64,000 nt of DNA from Candidatus Nomurabacteria bacterium (GTDB lineage Bacteria; Patescibacteriota; Minisyncoccia; Phycocordibacterales; UBA9973), in the NCBI GenBank assembly GCA_020631955.1, contig JACKGL010000002.1, positions 141,860 through 205,859 of the forward strand, given 5' to 3'. Under the pieces are notes generated by a model that did no database searches, had not been told where the DNA came from, and saw only the letters and a list, made by a program, of their open reading frames with translations. Position 1 is the stretch's first letter; the number at the start of each line of letters is the position of its first letter. A program made the position numbers and the translations under genes. Shown piece by piece: positions 31,735-37,745 of the stretch.

Positions 31735-32019
31735 ATGAGAAATATAAAACAATATAAAGAAAAACTTGTCGATGAAGGATTTAAACATGTATTTGAGTGG
31801 AGAGATAGACCAGGTACGATCTACGAAATACACGCGCACAAAGACCGTGTATCTTTTTATCTTCTCGACGGTGATCTAACTTTTGAATTTGATGATGAGA
31901 AAGTACATATACAAGCTCCGACTAGATACGATGTGGCGCCCGGCAGAGAACACAGTGCTATTGTTGGAAAAAACGGAGCTTACTATGTGGTAGGAGAAAT
32001 GATAGAAGGGGACTCTTAA
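31735..32019 (+). CDS. Small cupin-fold protein
   Basis: 94 aa; H-x-H...E and late H pattern (YEIHAHKD...REHSA). Confidence 0.55.
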   Translation: MRNIKQYKEKLVDEGFKHVFEWRDRPGTIYEIHAHKDRVSFYLLDGDLTFEFDDEKVHIQAPTRYDVAPGREHSAIVGKNGAYYVVGEMIEGDS

Positions 32020-32026
32020 TTTTTTT

Positions 32027-32258
32027 GTGTCTTTATTGTACCAAGTTAGAACCTATTTCCAAAGTCGAACCTAATCGCACATCCGTGCGCTAAAGCGCCT
32101 CTGTGCGAAGCACAGAGCTTTTCCAAAGGAAAAGGACGGATATGCGAAATGCAAATGCGGAACGCGAGCGGAAAGAATTTTGCGGAGGACTGGGGGTCTG
32201 GGGGAAAGGGCTCCGCAAAATTTCCGCTTCGTGTGCTTCGCTGTTTTTTGGCTGGGCG
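32027..32258 (+). repeat. IR-A, left copy (232 bp)
   Basis: Checked base by base: the reverse complement of 33980..34211 is identical over all 232 nt. Confidence 0.95.
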
Positions 32259-32407
32259 GGCATTAAGAAAAGAAATACAATATTGAAATTTTGGCAAAGC
32301 CAAAATACATTCTTAGTTTGTGCTTGACCCACCCTCCCATTCGCGCACAAAAATTCTGCTCCCAAAAACAACTAGAAAAAGAGAGCAAAAAATGTTAAAA
32401 TTGCACT

Positions 32408-33973
32408 ATGGAAAATAATGGTTTCAATAAGATTATAAACAACATTAACGAACAAAAAGGAAATTTTGGTGAGCCCCTTATTGAAAAACTTGGTCTAAAA
32501 ACTGGCAAGGAAGTCTCTCTGGTTAAACGTTCTCTTTCCGAAAATTCTGCCATTGGTGTTGGACAAAAAATTGAGGGCAAACTTATCCGTGATGTTCATG
32601 TTGGGCTACCTATTGAATTAGAAAATTCAAACACAAGTCCAATCAAAGAAATAAAAGAGGAACAAGGAAAATATTTTGTAAAAACACTTACTTCTGTGTA
32701 TGAACTTTTTGTACAAGCACAAAAAGTGGGAAATTTTGAGAAAATTTCCCACTTACAAGATGAACTAAAACAAATTGAATCTCATTTAAGTGAACAACCT
32801 GAATCAATCCAAAAAATGTTTCAAGAAATGAAAGACAAATTTTATTCTTCGGTTGAAATAGATAATAAAAAATTTATGTTCACCCAATTAAATGGAAATG
32901 ATGTAATGTCTTGGGTTGAAGATAAAAAAAATCCAGGCAAATGGAAAACTCGTCTTTTCAGGTTTTCTAGTTCAGATCACCAATGGAAATCACTGCCCGG
33001 AGAACGCGATGACGGAAGTTATATGAAAGGTGATGAGGATAGTCCTTTGCATCATTATGTGCAAAGTGCGAAATTAGATAAGAGAATTTATAAATTGATA
33101 AATTCTTTGCCTCAAAAATATAATCATTATTCAGCACAAGAATATTTACCCACTCCCCCGTATGGAGATACCAAAGGTCATTTTTGGAATGAATTTGAAT
33201 TTAAGGAAAATTACCAAACATTAAAAAATAAAGAATGGGCTTCCTACCAAGACTTTTGCCAGAGGTTTTTTAAGGGTTATGAAAGATTTGTGATGGGTGC
33301 TGATGGTTTCAGAAATTTTACTTTAGACGGTGGTCTGTATAAATGGATGAAAAATCTTGAAAGCATTGCAGAGTTTAGAAATATAAAAACTGAACTAGAA
33401 AGATTAAACACTAATCCAGAATATGCTGAGGAGTTGAAGCAAAGCAGTCTTTGGCGAATGGAAAAATTTATCAATGATAAACCGGAAGTTAAACACTTTG
33501 CTGAAGTATACAAACAAAATATTGGTTCTTACGTTGAAAAATGTTTTAAAGCAAGATTTCCTGAAACAATGATGCCTGATTTCAAAAAATGTGTTGATAA
33601 ATACGATAAGGTTGATATTGCTGAACAAGCACAAAAAAATAATATTCATATTGAGGAATACAAGGTAAATAATCCTGAAGGAGACGAATTAGTCTTTGCT
33701 ATGGCATATGACGATAAAGGTCGAGTCTATATTGATAATATTTATGACCCAAGAGTAGAAATTAGTGATTATGGTATTCCAAGCGAAATAGTCCAAATGG
33801 GACATTTGGTTTACAAGCCAGAGGATTATAGACAACAAACATATGCAATTCCTGAAAAATATTTAAATGATAAAAATAGCCACAAGTATATTGACATAAG
33901 TGCATTGTGGGAAAATATCCCAGTGATTAAAAATTTCAAAGAAGAGTTAAGGGTGCGTGGTGTTTTGAAATAA
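32408..33973 (+). CDS. Orphan cargo protein (521 aa) enclosed by IR-A
   Basis: Uninterrupted ORF, AT-rich unlike the flanking repeats, with no signal peptide or recognised motif. Its stop lies 6 nt before the right IR-A copy. Confidence 0.6.
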   Translation: MENNGFNKIINNINEQKGNFGEPLIEKLGLKTGKEVSLVKRSLSENSAIGVGQKIEGKLIRDVHVGLPIELENSNTSPIKEIKEEQGKYFVKTLTSVYELFVQAQKVGNFEKISHLQDELKQIESHLSEQPESIQKMFQEMKDKFYSSVEIDNKKFMFTQLNGNDVMSWVEDKKNPGKWKTRLFRFSSSDHQWKSLPGERDDGSYMKGDEDSPLHHYVQSAKLDKRIYKLINSLPQKYNHYSAQEYLPTPPYGDTKGHFWNEFEFKENYQTLKNKEWASYQDFCQRFFKGYERFVMGADGFRNFTLDGGLYKWMKNLESIAEFRNIKTELERLNTNPEYAEELKQSSLWRMEKFINDKPEVKHFAEVYKQNIGSYVEKCFKARFPETMMPDFKKCVDKYDKVDIAEQAQKNNIHIEEYKVNNPEGDELVFAMAYDDKGRVYIDNIYDPRVEISDYGIPSEIVQMGHLVYKPEDYRQQTYAIPEKYLNDKNSHKYIDISALWENIPVIKNFKEELRVRGVLK

Positions 33974-33979
33974 CTGCCT

Positions 33980-34211
33980 CGCCCAGCCAAAAAACAGCGA
34001 AGCACACGAAGCGGAAATTTTGCGGAGCCCTTTCCCCCAGACCCCCAGTCCTCCGCAAAATTCTTTCCGCTCGCGTTCCGCATTTGCATTTCGCATATCC
34101 GTCCTTTTCCTTTGGAAAAGCTCTGTGCTTCGCACAGAGGCGCTTTAGCGCACGGATGTGCGATTAGGTTCGACTTTGGAAATAGGTTCTAACTTGGTAC
34201 AATAAAGACAC
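33980..34211 (-). repeat. IR-A, right copy (232 bp, inverted)
   Basis: Perfect inverted copy of 32027..32258. Confidence 0.95.
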
Positions 34212-34238
34212 CAGTATTGAACTTAGCGGTTGAGAACC
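34185..34238. other. attP-like quasi-palindromic site centred on the IR-A/IR-B junction
   Basis: GGTTCTAAC (34185..34193) and GTTGAGAACC (34229..34238) are symmetric about CAC at 34209..34211, with further partial arm symmetry. Confidence 0.55.
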
Positions 34239-34355
34239 AACCAAGGAGTGGGCGGCACAAAGTGCCGCCCACGCTGTTTCCCCTGATTTTCCAAACGCAT
34301 TTGGAGCCGCGCCTGCGGCGCGGCGCACTGTTTTTTCGCCAAGAAGCAGGTTCGA
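34209..34355 (-). repeat. IR-B, left copy (147 bp, inverted; includes a duplicate of the recombinase 3' coding end)
   Basis: Checked base by base: the reverse complement equals 35932..36078. It overlaps IR-A by 3 nt. Confidence 0.95.
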
Positions 34356-34437
34356 AATCAGAATGCAATTTTGGCATAGTATTTGCTTTGGATACAAAAA
34401 GAATTTTTGTTTGAAAATATTTTTGCTATACTGGAAA

Positions 34438-34530
34438 TGTTGTAACCAATTATTAGTTAGTCAGCAGAAAGGGCTATTCCAGATATCTTGACTAACGTTG
34501 AGGTTACAACACTGGAGTGGCCCTTTCTGC
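34438..34530 (+). promoter_or_regulatory. Structured recombinase leader with interleaved perfect complementarities
   Basis: Pairings: A 34438..34447 with 34502..34511 (10 bp); B 34456..34463 with 34489..34496 (8 bp); C 34464..34474 with 34520..34530 (11 bp); D 34478..34482 with 34512..34516 (5 bp). It ends 15 nt before the ATG. Confidence 0.5.
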
Positions 34531-34545
34531 TTGAAGAAAAAATAT

Positions 34546-36111
34546 ATGCAAAAATTCTTTTTGTATGCTCGCAAGAGCACCGATGTCGAGGATAAACAAG
34601 TGTTGAGTATCAAAGCTCAATTAACAGAGTTGCGCGCTTTCGCCAAAAATGAAAAGTTGGAAATTGTTAATGAGTTTGTAGAAAAGCGTACCGCTAAAGT
34701 TCCAGGTCGCCCCATTTTTGGCGAAATGATGAGACGAATTGAGAAAGGTGAAGTAAGCGGAATATTATCATGGCACCCCGATCGTCTGGCGCGCAATTCT
34801 GTGGACGGCGGACAGATAATCTACTTTCTCGACATCGGAAACCTTGCGAGCCTCAAATTCCCTAGCCACTGGTTTGAAAACACGCCACAGGGCAAATTCT
34901 CGCTGTCCATGGCATTTGTCCAAAGCAAATACTATGTAGATTCTCTTTCCGAGAACACGAAACGCGGACTTCGCCAAAAAGTGAGAATGGGTATATTTCC
35001 AAGCCAAGCGCCAGTGGGATATTTGAATGATAGCCGAACAAAAACGATTGTAGTTGAAAAGAAAAAATCTCGCATTGTGCGTTTGGCTTTCGAGCGATAT
35101 GTAAAAGGCAATCAAAGGTTAGAAGATATTGCAGAATTTTTGGCGAAGTCCGGTATTACAACCCGAACCGGAAAGAGAATCTCCAAAACCAAAGCGTCTT
35201 TTATCCTATCAAATCCGTTTTATATCGGCTTATTCAAATACAGTGGTGAACTCCACGAGGGGAAGCACGAGCCAATCATTTCAAAGAAACTTTTTGATGA
35301 AGCACAGGAAATGCTAAAACTTCGTGGTCAACCCGAAAGAAAACCACAAAATGAACCTCAACCATTTTGCGGTCTCATTTCCTGTGCTTCTTGTGGAATG
35401 ATGATAACTGGCGAACACAAATTCAAACGGCAGAAGAATGGGAATGTCCACGAGTACACATATTATCGCTGTACGAAAAAACGAAAAGATTTTATCTGCA
35501 AAGAATCTGCCGTTAGAGAGGAAGAAATGAATCGCCAGTTATCATCCCTCATTCAAAAAGTTTCTTTGCCTAAAGACTGGGCGGAGGAATTATTGAAAAT
35601 GGCGGAAAATGAACACAAAAACTCCGCCCAGTCTTTAACTGCTTGTGTGAAAGAGAAAGAAACGAAAATATCTGAAATTTCACAAAAGCTAGAGCGACTT
35701 CTTAACGGATATTTAGACCAAATTGTTGACGAGCAAGATTATCGAAATCAAAAAGCAAAATTATTGTCCGAGAAGAAGTCGCTTCAAGAAGAAATTTCAG
35801 ATTTTTCACACAAGCAGAATGATTGGCTCGAACCGATGAAAGAATGGATAAAAGACGCACAATCCTTGGACAAAATTGCTTCTGATGATGACCTTTTTGC
35901 AAAAAAGGTCAAAGCCAAAGAAATCTTTGGCTCGAACCTGCTTCTTGGCGAAAAAACAGTGCGCCGCGCCGCAGGCGCGGCTCCAAATGCGTTTGGAAAA
36001 TCAGGGGAAACAGCGTGGGCGGCACTTTGTGCCGCCCACTCCTTGGTTGGTTCTCAACCGCTAAGTTCAATACTGGTGCGCAGGAGAGGACTTGAACCTC
36101 CACACCCGTAA
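34546..36111 (+). CDS. Large serine recombinase
   Basis: Resolvase-type N-terminus YARKSTDVEDKQVLSIKAQ (catalytic Ser) and HPDRLARN, a recombinase domain, the zinc ribbon CGLISCASCG...YYRC, and a coiled coil. The last approximately 60 codons lie in IR-B and the tRNA. Confidence 0.85.
   Translation: MQKFFLYARKSTDVEDKQVLSIKAQLTELRAFAKNEKLEIVNEFVEKRTAKVPGRPIFGEMMRRIEKGEVSGILSWHPDRLARNSVDGGQIIYFLDIGNLASLKFPSHWFENTPQGKFSLSMAFVQSKYYVDSLSENTKRGLRQKVRMGIFPSQAPVGYLNDSRTKTIVVEKKKSRIVRLAFERYVKGNQRLEDIAEFLAKSGITTRTGKRISKTKASFILSNPFYIGLFKYSGELHEGKHEPIISKKLFDEAQEMLKLRGQPERKPQNEPQPFCGLISCASCGMMITGEHKFKRQKNGNVHEYTYYRCTKKRKDFICKESAVREEEMNRQLSSLIQKVSLPKDWAEELLKMAENEHKNSAQSLTACVKEKETKISEISQKLERLLNGYLDQIVDEQDYRNQKAKLLSEKKSLQEEISDFSHKQNDWLEPMKEWIKDAQSLDKIASDDDLFAKKVKAKEIFGSNLLLGEKTVRRAAGAAPNAFGKSGETAWAALCAAHSLVGSQPLSSILVRRRGLEPPHP
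35932..36078 (+). repeat. IR-B, right copy (147 bp)
   Basis: About 57% G+C by hand count (84 of 147). It contains perfect hairpins GCCGCGCC-GCA-GGCGCGGC and GTGGGCGGCAC-TTT-GTGCCGCCCAC. Confidence 0.95.
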
Positions 36112-36160
36112 GGGCACATCCACCTCAAGGATGCTTGTCTACCAGTTTCAACACCTGCGC
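36074..36160 (-). tRNA. tRNA-Leu (anticodon GAG), class II
   Basis: 87 nt including CCA. It aligns arm for arm with E. coli-type tRNA-Leu: acceptor GCGCAGG/CCTGCGC, anticodon loop TTGAGGT, long variable arm, T arm GGAGG-TTCAAGT-CCTCT. The last 5 nt lie inside IR-B. Confidence 0.9.
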
Positions 36161-37633: not shown

Positions 37634-37706
37634 GGTGTCTATAGTGTAATGGTTAGCACTAGAGTTTGTGGAACTCTCAGTTCGGGTTCAAATCCCGATA
37701 GACACC
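37634..37706 (+). tRNA. tRNA-His (anticodon GUG) with encoded G-1
   Basis: G-1 plus acceptor GTGTCTA/TAGACAC, discriminator C, anticodon loop TTGTGGA, T arm TCGGG-TTCAAAT-CCCGA. Confidence 0.9.
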
Positions 37707-37745
37707 CAAAGTGAACATTTTATATCAAATAGTGATTTTCTAAGT

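What the first reader, a model, noticed from the sequence alone, without database searches (positions are those of the whole stretch)
32259..33979. Orphan 521-aa cargo gene enclosed by IR-A, compositionally unlike the rest of the element
The segment between the IR-A copies carries a single intact ORF (32408..33973). It has no signal peptide, no TM helix and no motif I recognise.

Its stop codon lies 6 nt from the repeat boundary.

The ATG is preceded by an extended -10-like TGTTAAAAT (32393..32401) only about 7 nt upstream. This suggests a leaderless or near-leaderless mRNA; that is inference.

The gene is AT-rich: the hand-counted sample 32881..32940 is 35% G+C. The recombinase gene and both repeat families are about 50-57% G+C. 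The element is therefore a mosaic, as if the cargo had been captured separately.

Any recombination between the IR-A copies flips this gene relative to the upstream rluD-rplS-cupin transcription unit.
Basis: partly seen in the sequence, partly recalled or inferred. Interest (0 to 1): 0.55.

Follow-up and report, generated by a model that had tools for sequence, protein, structure and literature searches.

The report
Unknown-function cargo gene on recombinase element
The 521-aa ORF is a real, strongly conserved gene of a protein family found almost only in Patescibacteria, with no recognisable fold; it rides as exchangeable cargo in a small serine-recombinase element inserted at the end of a tRNA-Leu gene, and its function is unknown (a defence or conflict role is my best guess).

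Summary
ORF 32408..33973 is intact and lies between perfect 232-nt inverted repeats. It has no Pfam, NCBIfam, PHROG, PADLOC or PDB match. It is under strong purifying selection (dN/dS 0.03-0.11) and gives a confident AlphaFold model (pLDDT 90.6) with no PDB fold match.

The composition argument is only half right. The gene (32% GC) looks like the host genome (37%). The repeats (51-57%) and, mildly, the recombinase (41-43%, not 50-57%) are the outliers.

IR-A and IR-B together read as one architecture: host | a-X-a' | b-LSR-b' | tRNA-Leu 3' end. A 3-nt core (GTG) sits at both ends, and an intact attP-like junction (a'|b) lies inside in inverted orientation. Ten complete elements at ten different tRNA genes share this layout. 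60 of 80 related recombinase loci have the b/b' pair.

Only 1 of those 80 carries a relative of this gene. Other cargos include viperin-like, Mrr, Shedu and restriction-modification genes. Strains of the same species carry a different cargo at the same site.

So the gene is passenger cargo and is not needed for mobility. Its function is unknown; I rate defence/conflict most likely. Inversion is plausible but was not demonstrated.

The parts
32027..32258 (.). IR-A left arm ('a'), the outer end of the element. Its first 3 nt, GTG, are the crossover core. Its first 37 nt are the conserved recombinase half-site, which is shared with strains that carry another cargo.
   Evidence: One search shows that L012 keeps the same 37 nt next to its b arm.
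32259..33979 (.). Unique cargo segment X (1721 nt), 32.5% GC.
   Evidence: The Logan unitig L035 (1781 nt) equals X plus 30 nt on each side, which means the assembly graph branches at the repeat.
32373..32401 (+). Promoter-like site TAGAAA-17-(TG)TTAAAAT, 6 nt upstream of the ATG. It implies a leaderless or near-leaderless mRNA (inference).
32408..33973 (+). 521-aa cargo gene. It belongs to an uncharacterised family found almost only in Patescibacteria. The predicted layout is an N-terminal beta-barrel (about residues 35-102), a helical linker, a beta/loop region carrying the invariant motifs FRFSGSDHQWK and PLHHYVQSAK, a helical bundle (275-380) and a C-terminal beta domain (395-500, motifs YIDNIYDP and YKPEDY).
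33980..34211 (.). IR-A right arm ('a''). Its outer end carries a GGTTC T-loop-like motif and a promoter-like site (34176-34203, TTGGAA-16-TG-TACAAT) that points across the core towards the recombinase.
34209..34211 (.). Core CAC, shared by a' and b. It is the centre of the intact, inverted attP-like junction.
34209..34355 (.). IR-B left arm ('b'). It starts with CACCA, mimicking a tRNA 3' end, and contains a terminator-like hairpin at 34306-34324.
34546..36111 (+). Large serine recombinase, 521 aa from the ATG at 34546 (the ORF opens at a TTG at 34498). It has Resolvase, Recombinase and Zn_ribbon_recom domains. Its C-terminal tail runs into b'.
35932..36078 (.). IR-B right arm ('b''). It ends with the core GTG (36076-36078), which overlaps the tRNA 3' end.
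36074..36160 (-). tRNA-Leu(gag). Its 3' end is the integration target (attB).
   Evidence: One search gives the native 3' flank in the syntenic locus L012.
31735..32019 (+). Cupin gene, the host flank on the far side of the element. Its stop codon lies 7 nt from the element end.

Best explanation
The 521-aa ORF is a functional passenger gene in the cargo slot of a roughly 4.05-kb mobile element (32027-36078). A large serine recombinase (LSR) inserted this element at the 3' end of tRNA-Leu(gag).

The layout is: host | a-X-a' | b-LSR-b' | tRNA. The two ends carry the same 3-nt core, GTG. The internal a'|b junction is the reverse complement of what joining the two ends would produce. It is therefore an intact second copy of the attachment site, in inverted orientation. 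If the element excises (inferred), the circle would have two unique segments, cargo and recombinase, separated by one 376-nt inverted repeat. IR-A and IR-B would then be the two halves of that repeat, split by integration.

The arms and the recombinase are the conserved vehicle. The segment between the a arms is a variable slot that holds different accessory genes in different elements and strains. The 521-aa protein is not needed for mobility.

The protein is cytoplasmic and has several domains, with many invariant polar residues, so it looks like an enzyme. In the window it is transcribed from its own extended -10 promoter as a leaderless or near-leaderless mRNA (inferred).

Its most likely role (inferred, about 35-40%) is in genetic conflict, as an anti-phage or anti-mobile-element defence protein that works alone or with variable partners.
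For: Shown:
- The gene is real and constrained. dN/dS is 0.028 against the 91%-identical L014 copy, although synonymous sites are nearly saturated (pS 0.67), and about 0.1 against four others.
- There are 68 homologue clusters and 27 invariant residues. The AF2 model has pLDDT 90.6.
- Element anatomy: the core is a direct repeat at both ends, and the inner junction equals right arm + core + left arm. This holds in the window, L001 and L034 and in seven further loci, each at a different tRNA.
- The reconstructed empty site (tRNA-Leu ...gcgCAC + aaaaaaatt) resembles the native tRNA-Leu 3' flank of the syntenic locus L012 (...gcgCACaaacaaaaaaaa).
- 60 of 80 LSR relatives have the b/b' repeat. In 40 of them the tRNA 3' end abuts b'. 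The sequence left of b is a conserved GGTTCGA...TATAAT...CACCA end.
- Cargo status: only 1 of 80 LSR loci holds a family member.
- Other cargos are viperin-like radical SAM, Mrr endonuclease with NUDIX, a DNA methylase with a ResIII helicase, Shedu, NUDIX-MTase-CYTH, a WYL regulator and proteases. They are often led by an XRE 'control protein' HTH.
- In relatives the gene follows such an HTH and sits next to a Shedu nuclease or to variable unknown genes.
- Same-species assemblies L120 and L121 have another cargo at the same site.
- There is no match in phage, plasmid or IMG/VR collections.
Against: - The function is not supported by any homology. No PADLOC model matches and no fold match exists in the PDB.
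- Not all cargos are defence genes. Examples are D-Ala-D-Ala ligase, a surface protein and a solute-binding protein.
- More distant family members (the C-terminal 400 aa only) sit in stable chromosomal contexts without a recombinase. They lie next to a VirB4/TraG-like ATPase in three genomes, including the cultured Minisyncoccus archaeiphilus, or upstream of rpsB-tsf. The C-terminal module also occurs inside giant Patescibacteria proteins. This points to some other cellular role.
- Neither the circular form nor an empty site in this species was observed.
- No recombination directionality factor is evident in this two-gene element, so excision is unproven.
Confidence: 0.6

Rival explanations
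1. The protein is a host-interaction or secretion-associated factor of the episymbiotic lifestyle, for example a substrate or accessory of a type-IV-secretion-like apparatus. The copy on the element would then be a horizontally spread variant of that factor.
For: In L022, L024 (Minisyncoccus archaeiphilus, complete genome) and L025, the family domain is the C-terminal part of proteins called at 554 to 1179 aa (L025 is shorter and its contig holds masked N runs), directly downstream of a 593-aa TraG/VirB4-like ATPase. The C-terminal module occurs in giant Patescibacteria proteins of 3400-7400 aa. One other cargo in the same slot is a surface protein (L061).
Against: The 521-aa form and almost all family members lack a signal peptide or membrane segment. 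In the mobile clade the gene sits behind XRE regulators and beside a Shedu nuclease, not beside secretion genes. Only three related genomes show the ATPase link.
Confidence: 0.2
2. The gene is the toxin of a toxin-antitoxin or addiction module (XRE-HTH antitoxin plus a large toxin, like hipBA) that stabilises the element.
For: In L001, L009/L010, L006 and L034 a 67-70-aa XRE HTH gene opens the operon, in some cases 4 nt upstream of the gene. JGI named two homologues 'HigB'.
Against: The window, L012, L004/L005, L018 and L019 carry the gene without any HTH partner, and the gene is still intact and strongly conserved. There is no fold similarity to HipA, RelE or other toxins. Pfam finds no HigB domain in P0018. 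The HTH also heads cargo operons that lack this gene.
Confidence: 0.1
3. The segment is a phase-variable invertible switch. Recombination between the IR-A copies turns the gene on or off relative to the rluD-rplS-cupin transcription unit.
For: The perfect 232-nt inverted repeats would allow inversion. The cargo orientation relative to the recombinase is divergent in about 12 related elements and co-directional in about 4, including the window.
Against: The gene has its own promoter inside the segment. The promoter-like sites in the arms point outwards, not into X. Three independent assemblies that cross the left arm (L116, L117, L123) all show the window's orientation. Apparent flips in L125/L126 and in L010/L011 involve repeats longer than the assembler's k-mer. 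L125 also joins flanks of two species.
Confidence: 0.1
4. The protein serves the element itself, as a recombination directionality factor, a replication initiator or a transposase of an IS-like unit bounded by IR-A.
For: It is the only gene besides the recombinase in this 4-kb element. It is bounded by terminal inverted repeats. Directionality factors of serine integrases are very diverse.
Against: 79 of 80 loci with related recombinases lack it. It travels with recombinases only 39-46% identical to one another. It occurs without any recombinase or repeats in L012, L015, L018 and many distant loci. It has no nuclease, primase or NTPase motif or fold. The window holds only one copy of the repeats.
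Confidence: 0.04

Closest known systems
Small tRNA-targeting integrative elements driven by large serine recombinases (LSR-type genomic islands, such as the serine-recombinase tycheposons of Prochlorococcus, and SCC-type cassettes moved by CcrAB)
   Same: The recombinase has the three-domain LSR build, and its best NCBIfam matches are CcrB and XisF, both below their cut-offs. The element inserts at a tRNA 3' end with a short duplicated core and rebuilds the ..CCA end. The accessory or defence cargo is variable.
   Different: Each unique segment is bracketed by long, near-perfect inverted repeats. A complete second att junction sits inside the element in inverted orientation. I know of no described LSR island with this layout, and two literature searches found none. 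No directionality factor is apparent.
Yeast 2-micron plasmid, and plastid-type quadripartite circles
   Same: The inferred excised form would be a circle of two unique regions separated by one pair of inverted repeats (376 nt). A site-specific recombinase gene lies in one unique region, and its site lies inside the repeat.
   Different: The 2-micron recombinase, FLP, is a tyrosine recombinase that flips the repeats. Serine integrases normally do not recombine two attP sites. The circle itself, any replication origin and flipping were not observed here.
Invertible segments of the Gin/Cin/Hin type (for example the phage P1 C segment with its 0.6-kb inverted repeats) and invertons
   Same: A gene-bearing segment is flanked by long inverted repeats, with a serine recombinase gene next door.
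   Different: The recombinase is of the large integrase type, not a small invertase. The crossover core sits at the outer ends, as for integration. No alternative coding or promoter arrangement is created. Both orientations were not shown in one population.
Integron gene cassettes
   Same: One recombinase platform serves many promoter-poor or self-contained cargo units. The cargo differs between strains at the same site. Arrays of several repeat-bracketed modules exist (L057, L051).
   Different: There is no IntI tyrosine recombinase, attI or attC. Modules are bounded by 100-490-nt inverted repeats. Independent mobility of single modules is only inferred.
Uncharacterised proteins of Klosneuvirinae giant-virus genomes (Indivirus A0A1V0SDE5, Klosneuvirus A0A1V0SKW6, Hokovirus A0A1V0SF17)
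   Same: These are the only significant structural matches to the 521-aa model (Foldseek E 4e-11 to 2e-7, TM 0.34-0.53).
   Different: They are themselves unannotated, share 13-15% identity, and give no functional information.

Membership tests
Large-serine-recombinase integrative element | Recombinase with Resolvase catalytic domain, Recombinase domain and zinc-ribbon domain, and a catalytic serine near the N-terminus | tested here: met
   Pfam PF00239, PF07508 and PF13408 all score above their cut-offs. The YARKST motif is invariant in three relatives.
Large-serine-recombinase integrative element | Element ends share a short identical core with the target, and the joined ends would recreate an attP-like site | tested here: met
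   GTG lies at 32027-29 and 36076-78, and the inner junction equals right arm + core + left arm. The same holds in nine other elements.
Large-serine-recombinase integrative element | An empty target site or an excised circle is observable | tested here: inconclusive
   No empty cupin/tRNA-Leu junction appeared among the 16 representative places shown, out of about 48 same-species contigs read. L012 gives only a comparable native tRNA-Leu flank. Contigs that look circular are equally explained by the symmetry of the repeats.
Large-serine-recombinase integrative element | A recombination directionality factor for excision | tested here: not met
   The element holds only two genes. The 521-aa gene is absent from 79 of 80 related loci, so it cannot be a general directionality factor.
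Invertible DNA switch (Hin/Gin/Cin type or inverton) | Both orientations present in one population | tested here: inconclusive
   L116, L117 and L123 agree with the window. The flipped contigs are unreliable. No reads were available.
Invertible DNA switch (Hin/Gin/Cin type or inverton) | Inversion changes a promoter-gene or coding connection | tested here: not met
   The promoter lies inside the segment with the gene, and the arm promoters face outwards.
Insertion sequence / transposon with terminal inverted repeats | The enclosed ORF is a transposase, and the unit has several copies or target-site duplications | tested here: not met
   The ORF has no transposase family or fold. The repeats occur only once in 64 kb.
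Known anti-phage defence systems (PADLOC-DB v2) | The protein matches a model of a known or candidate defence protein | tested here: not met
   There were 0 hits for the query and for seven homologues. The neighbouring gene in L001 is SduA, with E 3e-61.
Type II toxin-antitoxin (XRE/HipB-like antitoxin plus large toxin) | An obligatory adjacent antitoxin gene | tested here: not met
   No HTH gene is present in segment 32259-33979. Other solo copies also exist.
   No family could be assigned. L012 has the gene at the same rplS/Pterin_4a locus without long repeats, but there it is an insert flanked by 35-nt direct repeats next to tRNA-Leu.

The most novel reading that the evidence does not exclude
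Two linked readings remain open.

First, the double-repeat LSR elements could be a previously undescribed cassette system that is widespread in Patescibacteria. In this reading, modules bracketed by split copies of the recombinase's own att site are swapped, stacked and possibly flipped at tRNA 3' ends. That would be a serine-recombinase counterpart of integrons or of 2-micron-type flip-flop circles.

Second, the 521-aa protein could be a new-fold defence enzyme that these elements spread among ultra-small episymbiotic bacteria.
Probability: 0.25. Interest if true: 0.8.

Novelty: new variant of a known kind. Interest (0 to 1): 0.5.

Why it matters
Patescibacteria have tiny genomes and few recognised mobile elements or defence systems. 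This locus points to an abundant family of 3-9-kb recombinase elements: at least 581 hits in one metagenome collection. They occupy many different tRNA genes and shuttle accessory genes, many of them defence genes.

The 521-aa family is one such cargo. It has a confident predicted structure but no known fold or function. That makes it a concrete candidate for discovering a new activity.

The recombinases, with their clearly delimited attP-like (a'|b) and attB (tRNA 3' end) sites, are also candidates as new genome-engineering integrases.

Tried and rejected
1. Sequence and profile searches of the protein against Pfam, PADLOC, PHROGs, NCBIfam and PDB sequences gave nothing. The same was true for fusion homologues of 600-880 aa.

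2. Foldseek against the PDB gave a best E-value of 0.19. Against BFVD it found only unannotated giant-virus proteins.

3. tblastn against the phage and plasmid collections and against IMG/VR found no relatives.

4. Domain fusions in distant relatives (FHA, FGE-sulfatase, Metallophos) were too heterogeneous to interpret.

5. The partner proteins (337, 218, 217, 211 and 184 aa) gave no Pfam hit above cut-off. The three partners tested against PDB sequences (337, 218 and 184 aa) gave no hit either.

6. A word-index search with the C-terminal 139 aa found only fragments.

7. I first took L125/L126 as evidence that the recombinase segment flips. I rejected this because IR-B (147 nt) exceeds the MEGAHIT k of 141. 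L125 also joins a left flank from another species (rplS 74% identical) to sequence that is 100% window-type.

8. The opposite cargo orientation in L010 versus L011 is subject to the same caveat.

9. I considered L049, L040 and L077 as circular forms. I rejected them as uninformative, because b-Y-b'-a-X-a' is simply the reverse complement of the integrated order.

10. RNA in the repeats: Rfam found nothing beyond the tRNA. The a'b repeat folds much better than shuffled sequence (z = -7.4), but I did not pursue this.

11. I considered and rejected the roles of directionality factor, replication protein and transposase (see the rival explanations).
Full report
**1. The observation**

The window holds one long ORF at 32408..33973 (+, 521 aa). 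It lies inside a 1721-nt segment bounded by a perfect 232-nt inverted repeat, 32027-32258 / 33980-34211. A second perfect inverted repeat of 147 nt, 34209-34355 / 35932-36078, encloses a large serine recombinase (LSR) gene. These are the only long repeats in the 64 kb.

The stop codon is 6 nt from the repeat. TGTTAAAAT sits at 32393-32401, 6 nt before the ATG. The promoter scan lists it with a TAGAAA -35 at 17-nt spacing. The protein has no hydrophobic segment. It has no hit in Pfam, PADLOC, PHROGs, NCBIfam or PDB sequences.

The composition statement needs correcting:
- The gene is 32.1% GC (GC3 23.9%).
- The window is 36.9%, and its ORFs average 36.6% with sd 3.3.
- IR-A is 50.9% and IR-B is 57.1%.
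- The recombinase is 41-43%, not 50-57%.

The cargo is therefore host-like, and the repeats are the outliers. The same gradient recurs in all ten complete related elements.

**2. The gene is real and belongs to a family**

There are 68 clusters at 90% identity and 439 representatives at 50% identity. Wherever a source names the organism, it is a Patescibacterium (Paceibacterota, 'Saccharibacteria', Azambacteria, Shapirobacteria, Dojkabacteria, Minisyncoccus).

dN/dS is 0.028 against the 91%-identical copy in L014, although synonymous sites are nearly saturated. It is about 0.1 against four others. Twenty-seven residues are invariant across 59 sequences. They cluster in FRFSGSDHQWK, MKG, PLHHYVQSAK, FAMAYD.KGRVYIDNIYDP and YKPEDY.

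AlphaFold2 with this alignment gives pLDDT 90.6 and pTM 0.77. The model has an N-terminal six-stranded beta unit, helices, a beta/loop region, a helical bundle and a C-terminal beta domain. Foldseek finds nothing in the PDB (best E 0.19). In BFVD it finds only three unannotated Klosneuvirinae proteins (E 4e-11 to 2e-7).

The N-terminal 110 residues are specific to a tight clade (56-91% identity). Distant members keep only the C-terminal 400 aa, or only the last 135 aa. These are sometimes embedded in proteins of 1000-7400 aa.

**3. What the repeats are**

tRNA-Leu(gag) lies at 36074-36160 on the minus strand, and its 3' end overlaps the last bases of IR-B.

The element starts with GTG (32027-29) and ends with GTG (36076-78). 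The two inner arms overlap by CAC (34209-11). The inner junction read backwards is exactly right-end arm + GTG + left-end arm. That is the sequence excision would create, so it is an intact att site in inverted orientation.

Joining the two host flanks gives ...cctgcgCACaaaaaaattaag. This resembles the native tRNA-Leu(gag) 3' flank of the syntenic locus L012 (...ctcgcgCACaaacaaaaaaaa).

The same anatomy is found in L001/L002 (tRNA-Gln, core CAGCA) and L034 (tRNA-Gly, core GCACAA). It is also found in L055, L056, L057, L061, L078, L105 and L115. In each case the core is the last 2-6 nt of the tRNA (..NCCA).

A metagenome scan with an LSR alignment found at least 581 relatives. Of the best 80, 60 have the b/b' pair and 40 have a tRNA 3' end abutting b', involving more than 20 tRNA species.

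The sequence left of b is a conserved end..GGTTCGAgc..TTGGTAnAATAAAnA + CACCA. It carries a T-loop-like GGTTC about 4 nt further from the core than in the tRNA, plus an extended -10-like box that points across the core towards the recombinase. In serine integrases, attP and attB half-sites share motifs at different spacings (established knowledge). This fits a'|b being attP-like and the tRNA end being attB, but that remains inference.

My reading is that IR-A and IR-B are the two halves of one 376-nt repeat. An excised circle of about 4.05 kb would have cargo and recombinase segments separated by two inverted copies of that repeat. The circle was not observed.

**4. Cargo status**

Only 1 of the 80 LSR loci contains a relative of the gene, and that one is a weak match (31% identity, L057).

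In 26 delimited cargo segments, 72 of the 89 ORFs called were scanned. They include:
- XRE-type HTH 'control proteins' (9)
- two viperin-like radical-SAM proteins, with thymidylate kinases among the scanned ORFs
- an Mrr endonuclease with a NUDIX hydrolase
- a DNA methylase with a ResIII helicase
- Shedu
- a NUDIX-methyltransferase-CYTH fusion
- a WYL regulator
- serine proteases
- also a D-Ala-D-Ala ligase, a large surface protein and a solute-binding protein

In the mobile clade the gene usually sits in an operon opened by an HTH and is accompanied by variable genes:
- L001: HTH-522-SduA
- L009/L010: HTH-527-337 aa
- L006: HTH-217-211-526-218
- L034: HTH-184-gene

The window copy is solo and has its own promoter, as do L012 and L018.

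The closest homologue (L014/L034, 91%) travels with a recombinase only about 40% identical to the window's (39-43%). That element sits at tRNA-Gly, whereas the window's sits at tRNA-Leu.

Contigs of the same species are informative. The flanks of L120 and L121 are 99.6-100% identical to the window up to the 37th base of IR-A. They then continue with a different arm (86% identical to the arms of L040) and a different cargo: a 194-aa protein that I read by eye as RHH-like, followed by an ORF that I read by eye as peptidase-S51-like.

L012 keeps a frameshifted LSR with its b/b' arms and 37 nt of a' at tRNA-Val. Its copy of the gene sits alone at the tRNA-Leu 3' end, between 35-nt direct repeats. 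In L009/L010 the recombinase module has shrunk to a 47-nt palindrome.

**5. Function**

Nothing identifies the activity.

Against an element function: the gene is absent from 79 of 80 related elements.

Against a toxin-antitoxin pair: intact, conserved solo copies exist.

Against a switch: the promoter travels with the gene, and three assemblies agree on its orientation.

For a conflict or defence role:
- the company it keeps in this slot
- the XRE regulators
- the Shedu neighbour
- the patchy, horizontally moved clade with a clade-specific N-terminal domain

Against that role, or pointing to another: distant members lie beside a VirB4/TraG-like ATPase in Minisyncoccus and two relatives, or upstream of rpsB-tsf. 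The C-terminal module also occurs in giant proteins.

I therefore commit to 'stand-alone cytoplasmic conflict/defence enzyme carried as cargo' at roughly 35-40%. A host-interaction or secretion-linked role comes second at about 20%.

**6. Comparison and novelty**

The recombinase is an ordinary three-domain LSR. Targeting a tRNA 3' end and carrying defence cargo are both known themes. What I could not find described is the internal inverted att copy with both unique segments bracketed by long repeats. Absence from the held library is not proof of novelty.

The protein family is uncharacterised, and its confident model has no PDB fold match.

Overall this is a new variant of a known kind of element, carrying a gene of unknown function.

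**7. Caveats**

- The orientation of segments between repeats longer than the assembler's k-mer is not secure in short-read assemblies.
- The circular form, excision, promoter use and protein activity are all inferred.

Noticed in passing
L036-L115 (metagenome loci); window 34209-36160: Relatives of the window's recombinase form a large family, with at least 581 hits. Almost every gene is bracketed by 80-170-nt near-perfect inverted repeats, and the outer arm overlaps the last 2-6 nt of a tRNA gene. More than 20 different tRNA species are used.
   Followed up: yes
window 32185-32215 and 34023-34053; L001 5667-5675, L010 54-62, L034 7106-7114, L040 459-467, L048 47-55, L121 1226-1234: The inner part of the IR-A-type arms carries a hairpin whose loop holds GGGTCTGGGG(A), while the stem sequences differ between elements. 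The motif occurs in 23 of 131 loci, always in arms. In the window it occurs twice, against 0.15 expected by chance. It could be a conserved structured RNA or a protein-binding site.
   Followed up: partly
L120 1407-2128, L121 979-2125 (same species as the window; they diverge at window 32064): Other strains of the same species carry a different arm and a different cargo at the same insertion point. The cargo is a 194-aa protein and an ORF that look, by eye, RHH-like and peptidase-S51-like. These strains share only the first 37 nt of IR-A with the window.
   Followed up: partly
L125 4745-9698, L126 3417-8062; window 37635-37707: In another strain a second, different LSR (540 aa, with no flanking inverted repeats detected) lies directly after tRNA-His, followed by HTH/Peptidase_M78 genes. 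In the window the same tRNA-His site is unoccupied.
   Followed up: no
L125 1-3270: This contig shows rplS (74% identical to the window's) followed by tRNA-Leu(+), a recombinase segment 100% identical to the window's, then tRNA-Leu(-) and Pterin_4a. It is either an assembly chimera across the repeat, or evidence that two species share a nearly identical recombinase module.
   Followed up: partly
L012 1131-3072 and 5813-7771: A syntenic relative has a frameshifted LSR with its repeats at tRNA-Val. Separately, the 527-aa homologue sits alone after tRNA-Leu(gag), bracketed by 35-nt direct repeats of a terminator hairpin. tRNA-Leu points the opposite way from the window's copy.
   Followed up: partly
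L009 5478-5524, L010 3644-3686: Next to a cargo module with the 527-aa homologue, the recombinase module is replaced by a 43-47-nt palindrome made of the first ~21 nt of each b arm. This looks like a hairpin-mediated deletion of the recombinase.
   Followed up: partly
L057 1-9576; L051 1934-4509: These are arrays of three to four consecutive repeat-bracketed modules. In L057 there are also two inverted recombinase copies next to one tRNA, which suggests that modules can stack.
   Followed up: no
L024 (Minisyncoccus archaeiphilus PMX.108, 1524500-1537346), L022, L025: The family domain forms the C-terminus of 1100-1180-aa acidic, repeat-containing proteins in L022 and L024, directly downstream of a TraG/VirB4-like ATPase and near yidC and jag. 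L025 has the same neighbours but a shorter call (554 aa, contig with masked N runs).
   Followed up: partly
window 36074-36160: The whole-window Rfam scan at gathering threshold did not list tRNA-Leu(gag). It nevertheless scores 46 bits (gathering score 29) when the region is scanned alone, and ARAGORN finds it. This is presumably a filter effect.
   Followed up: no
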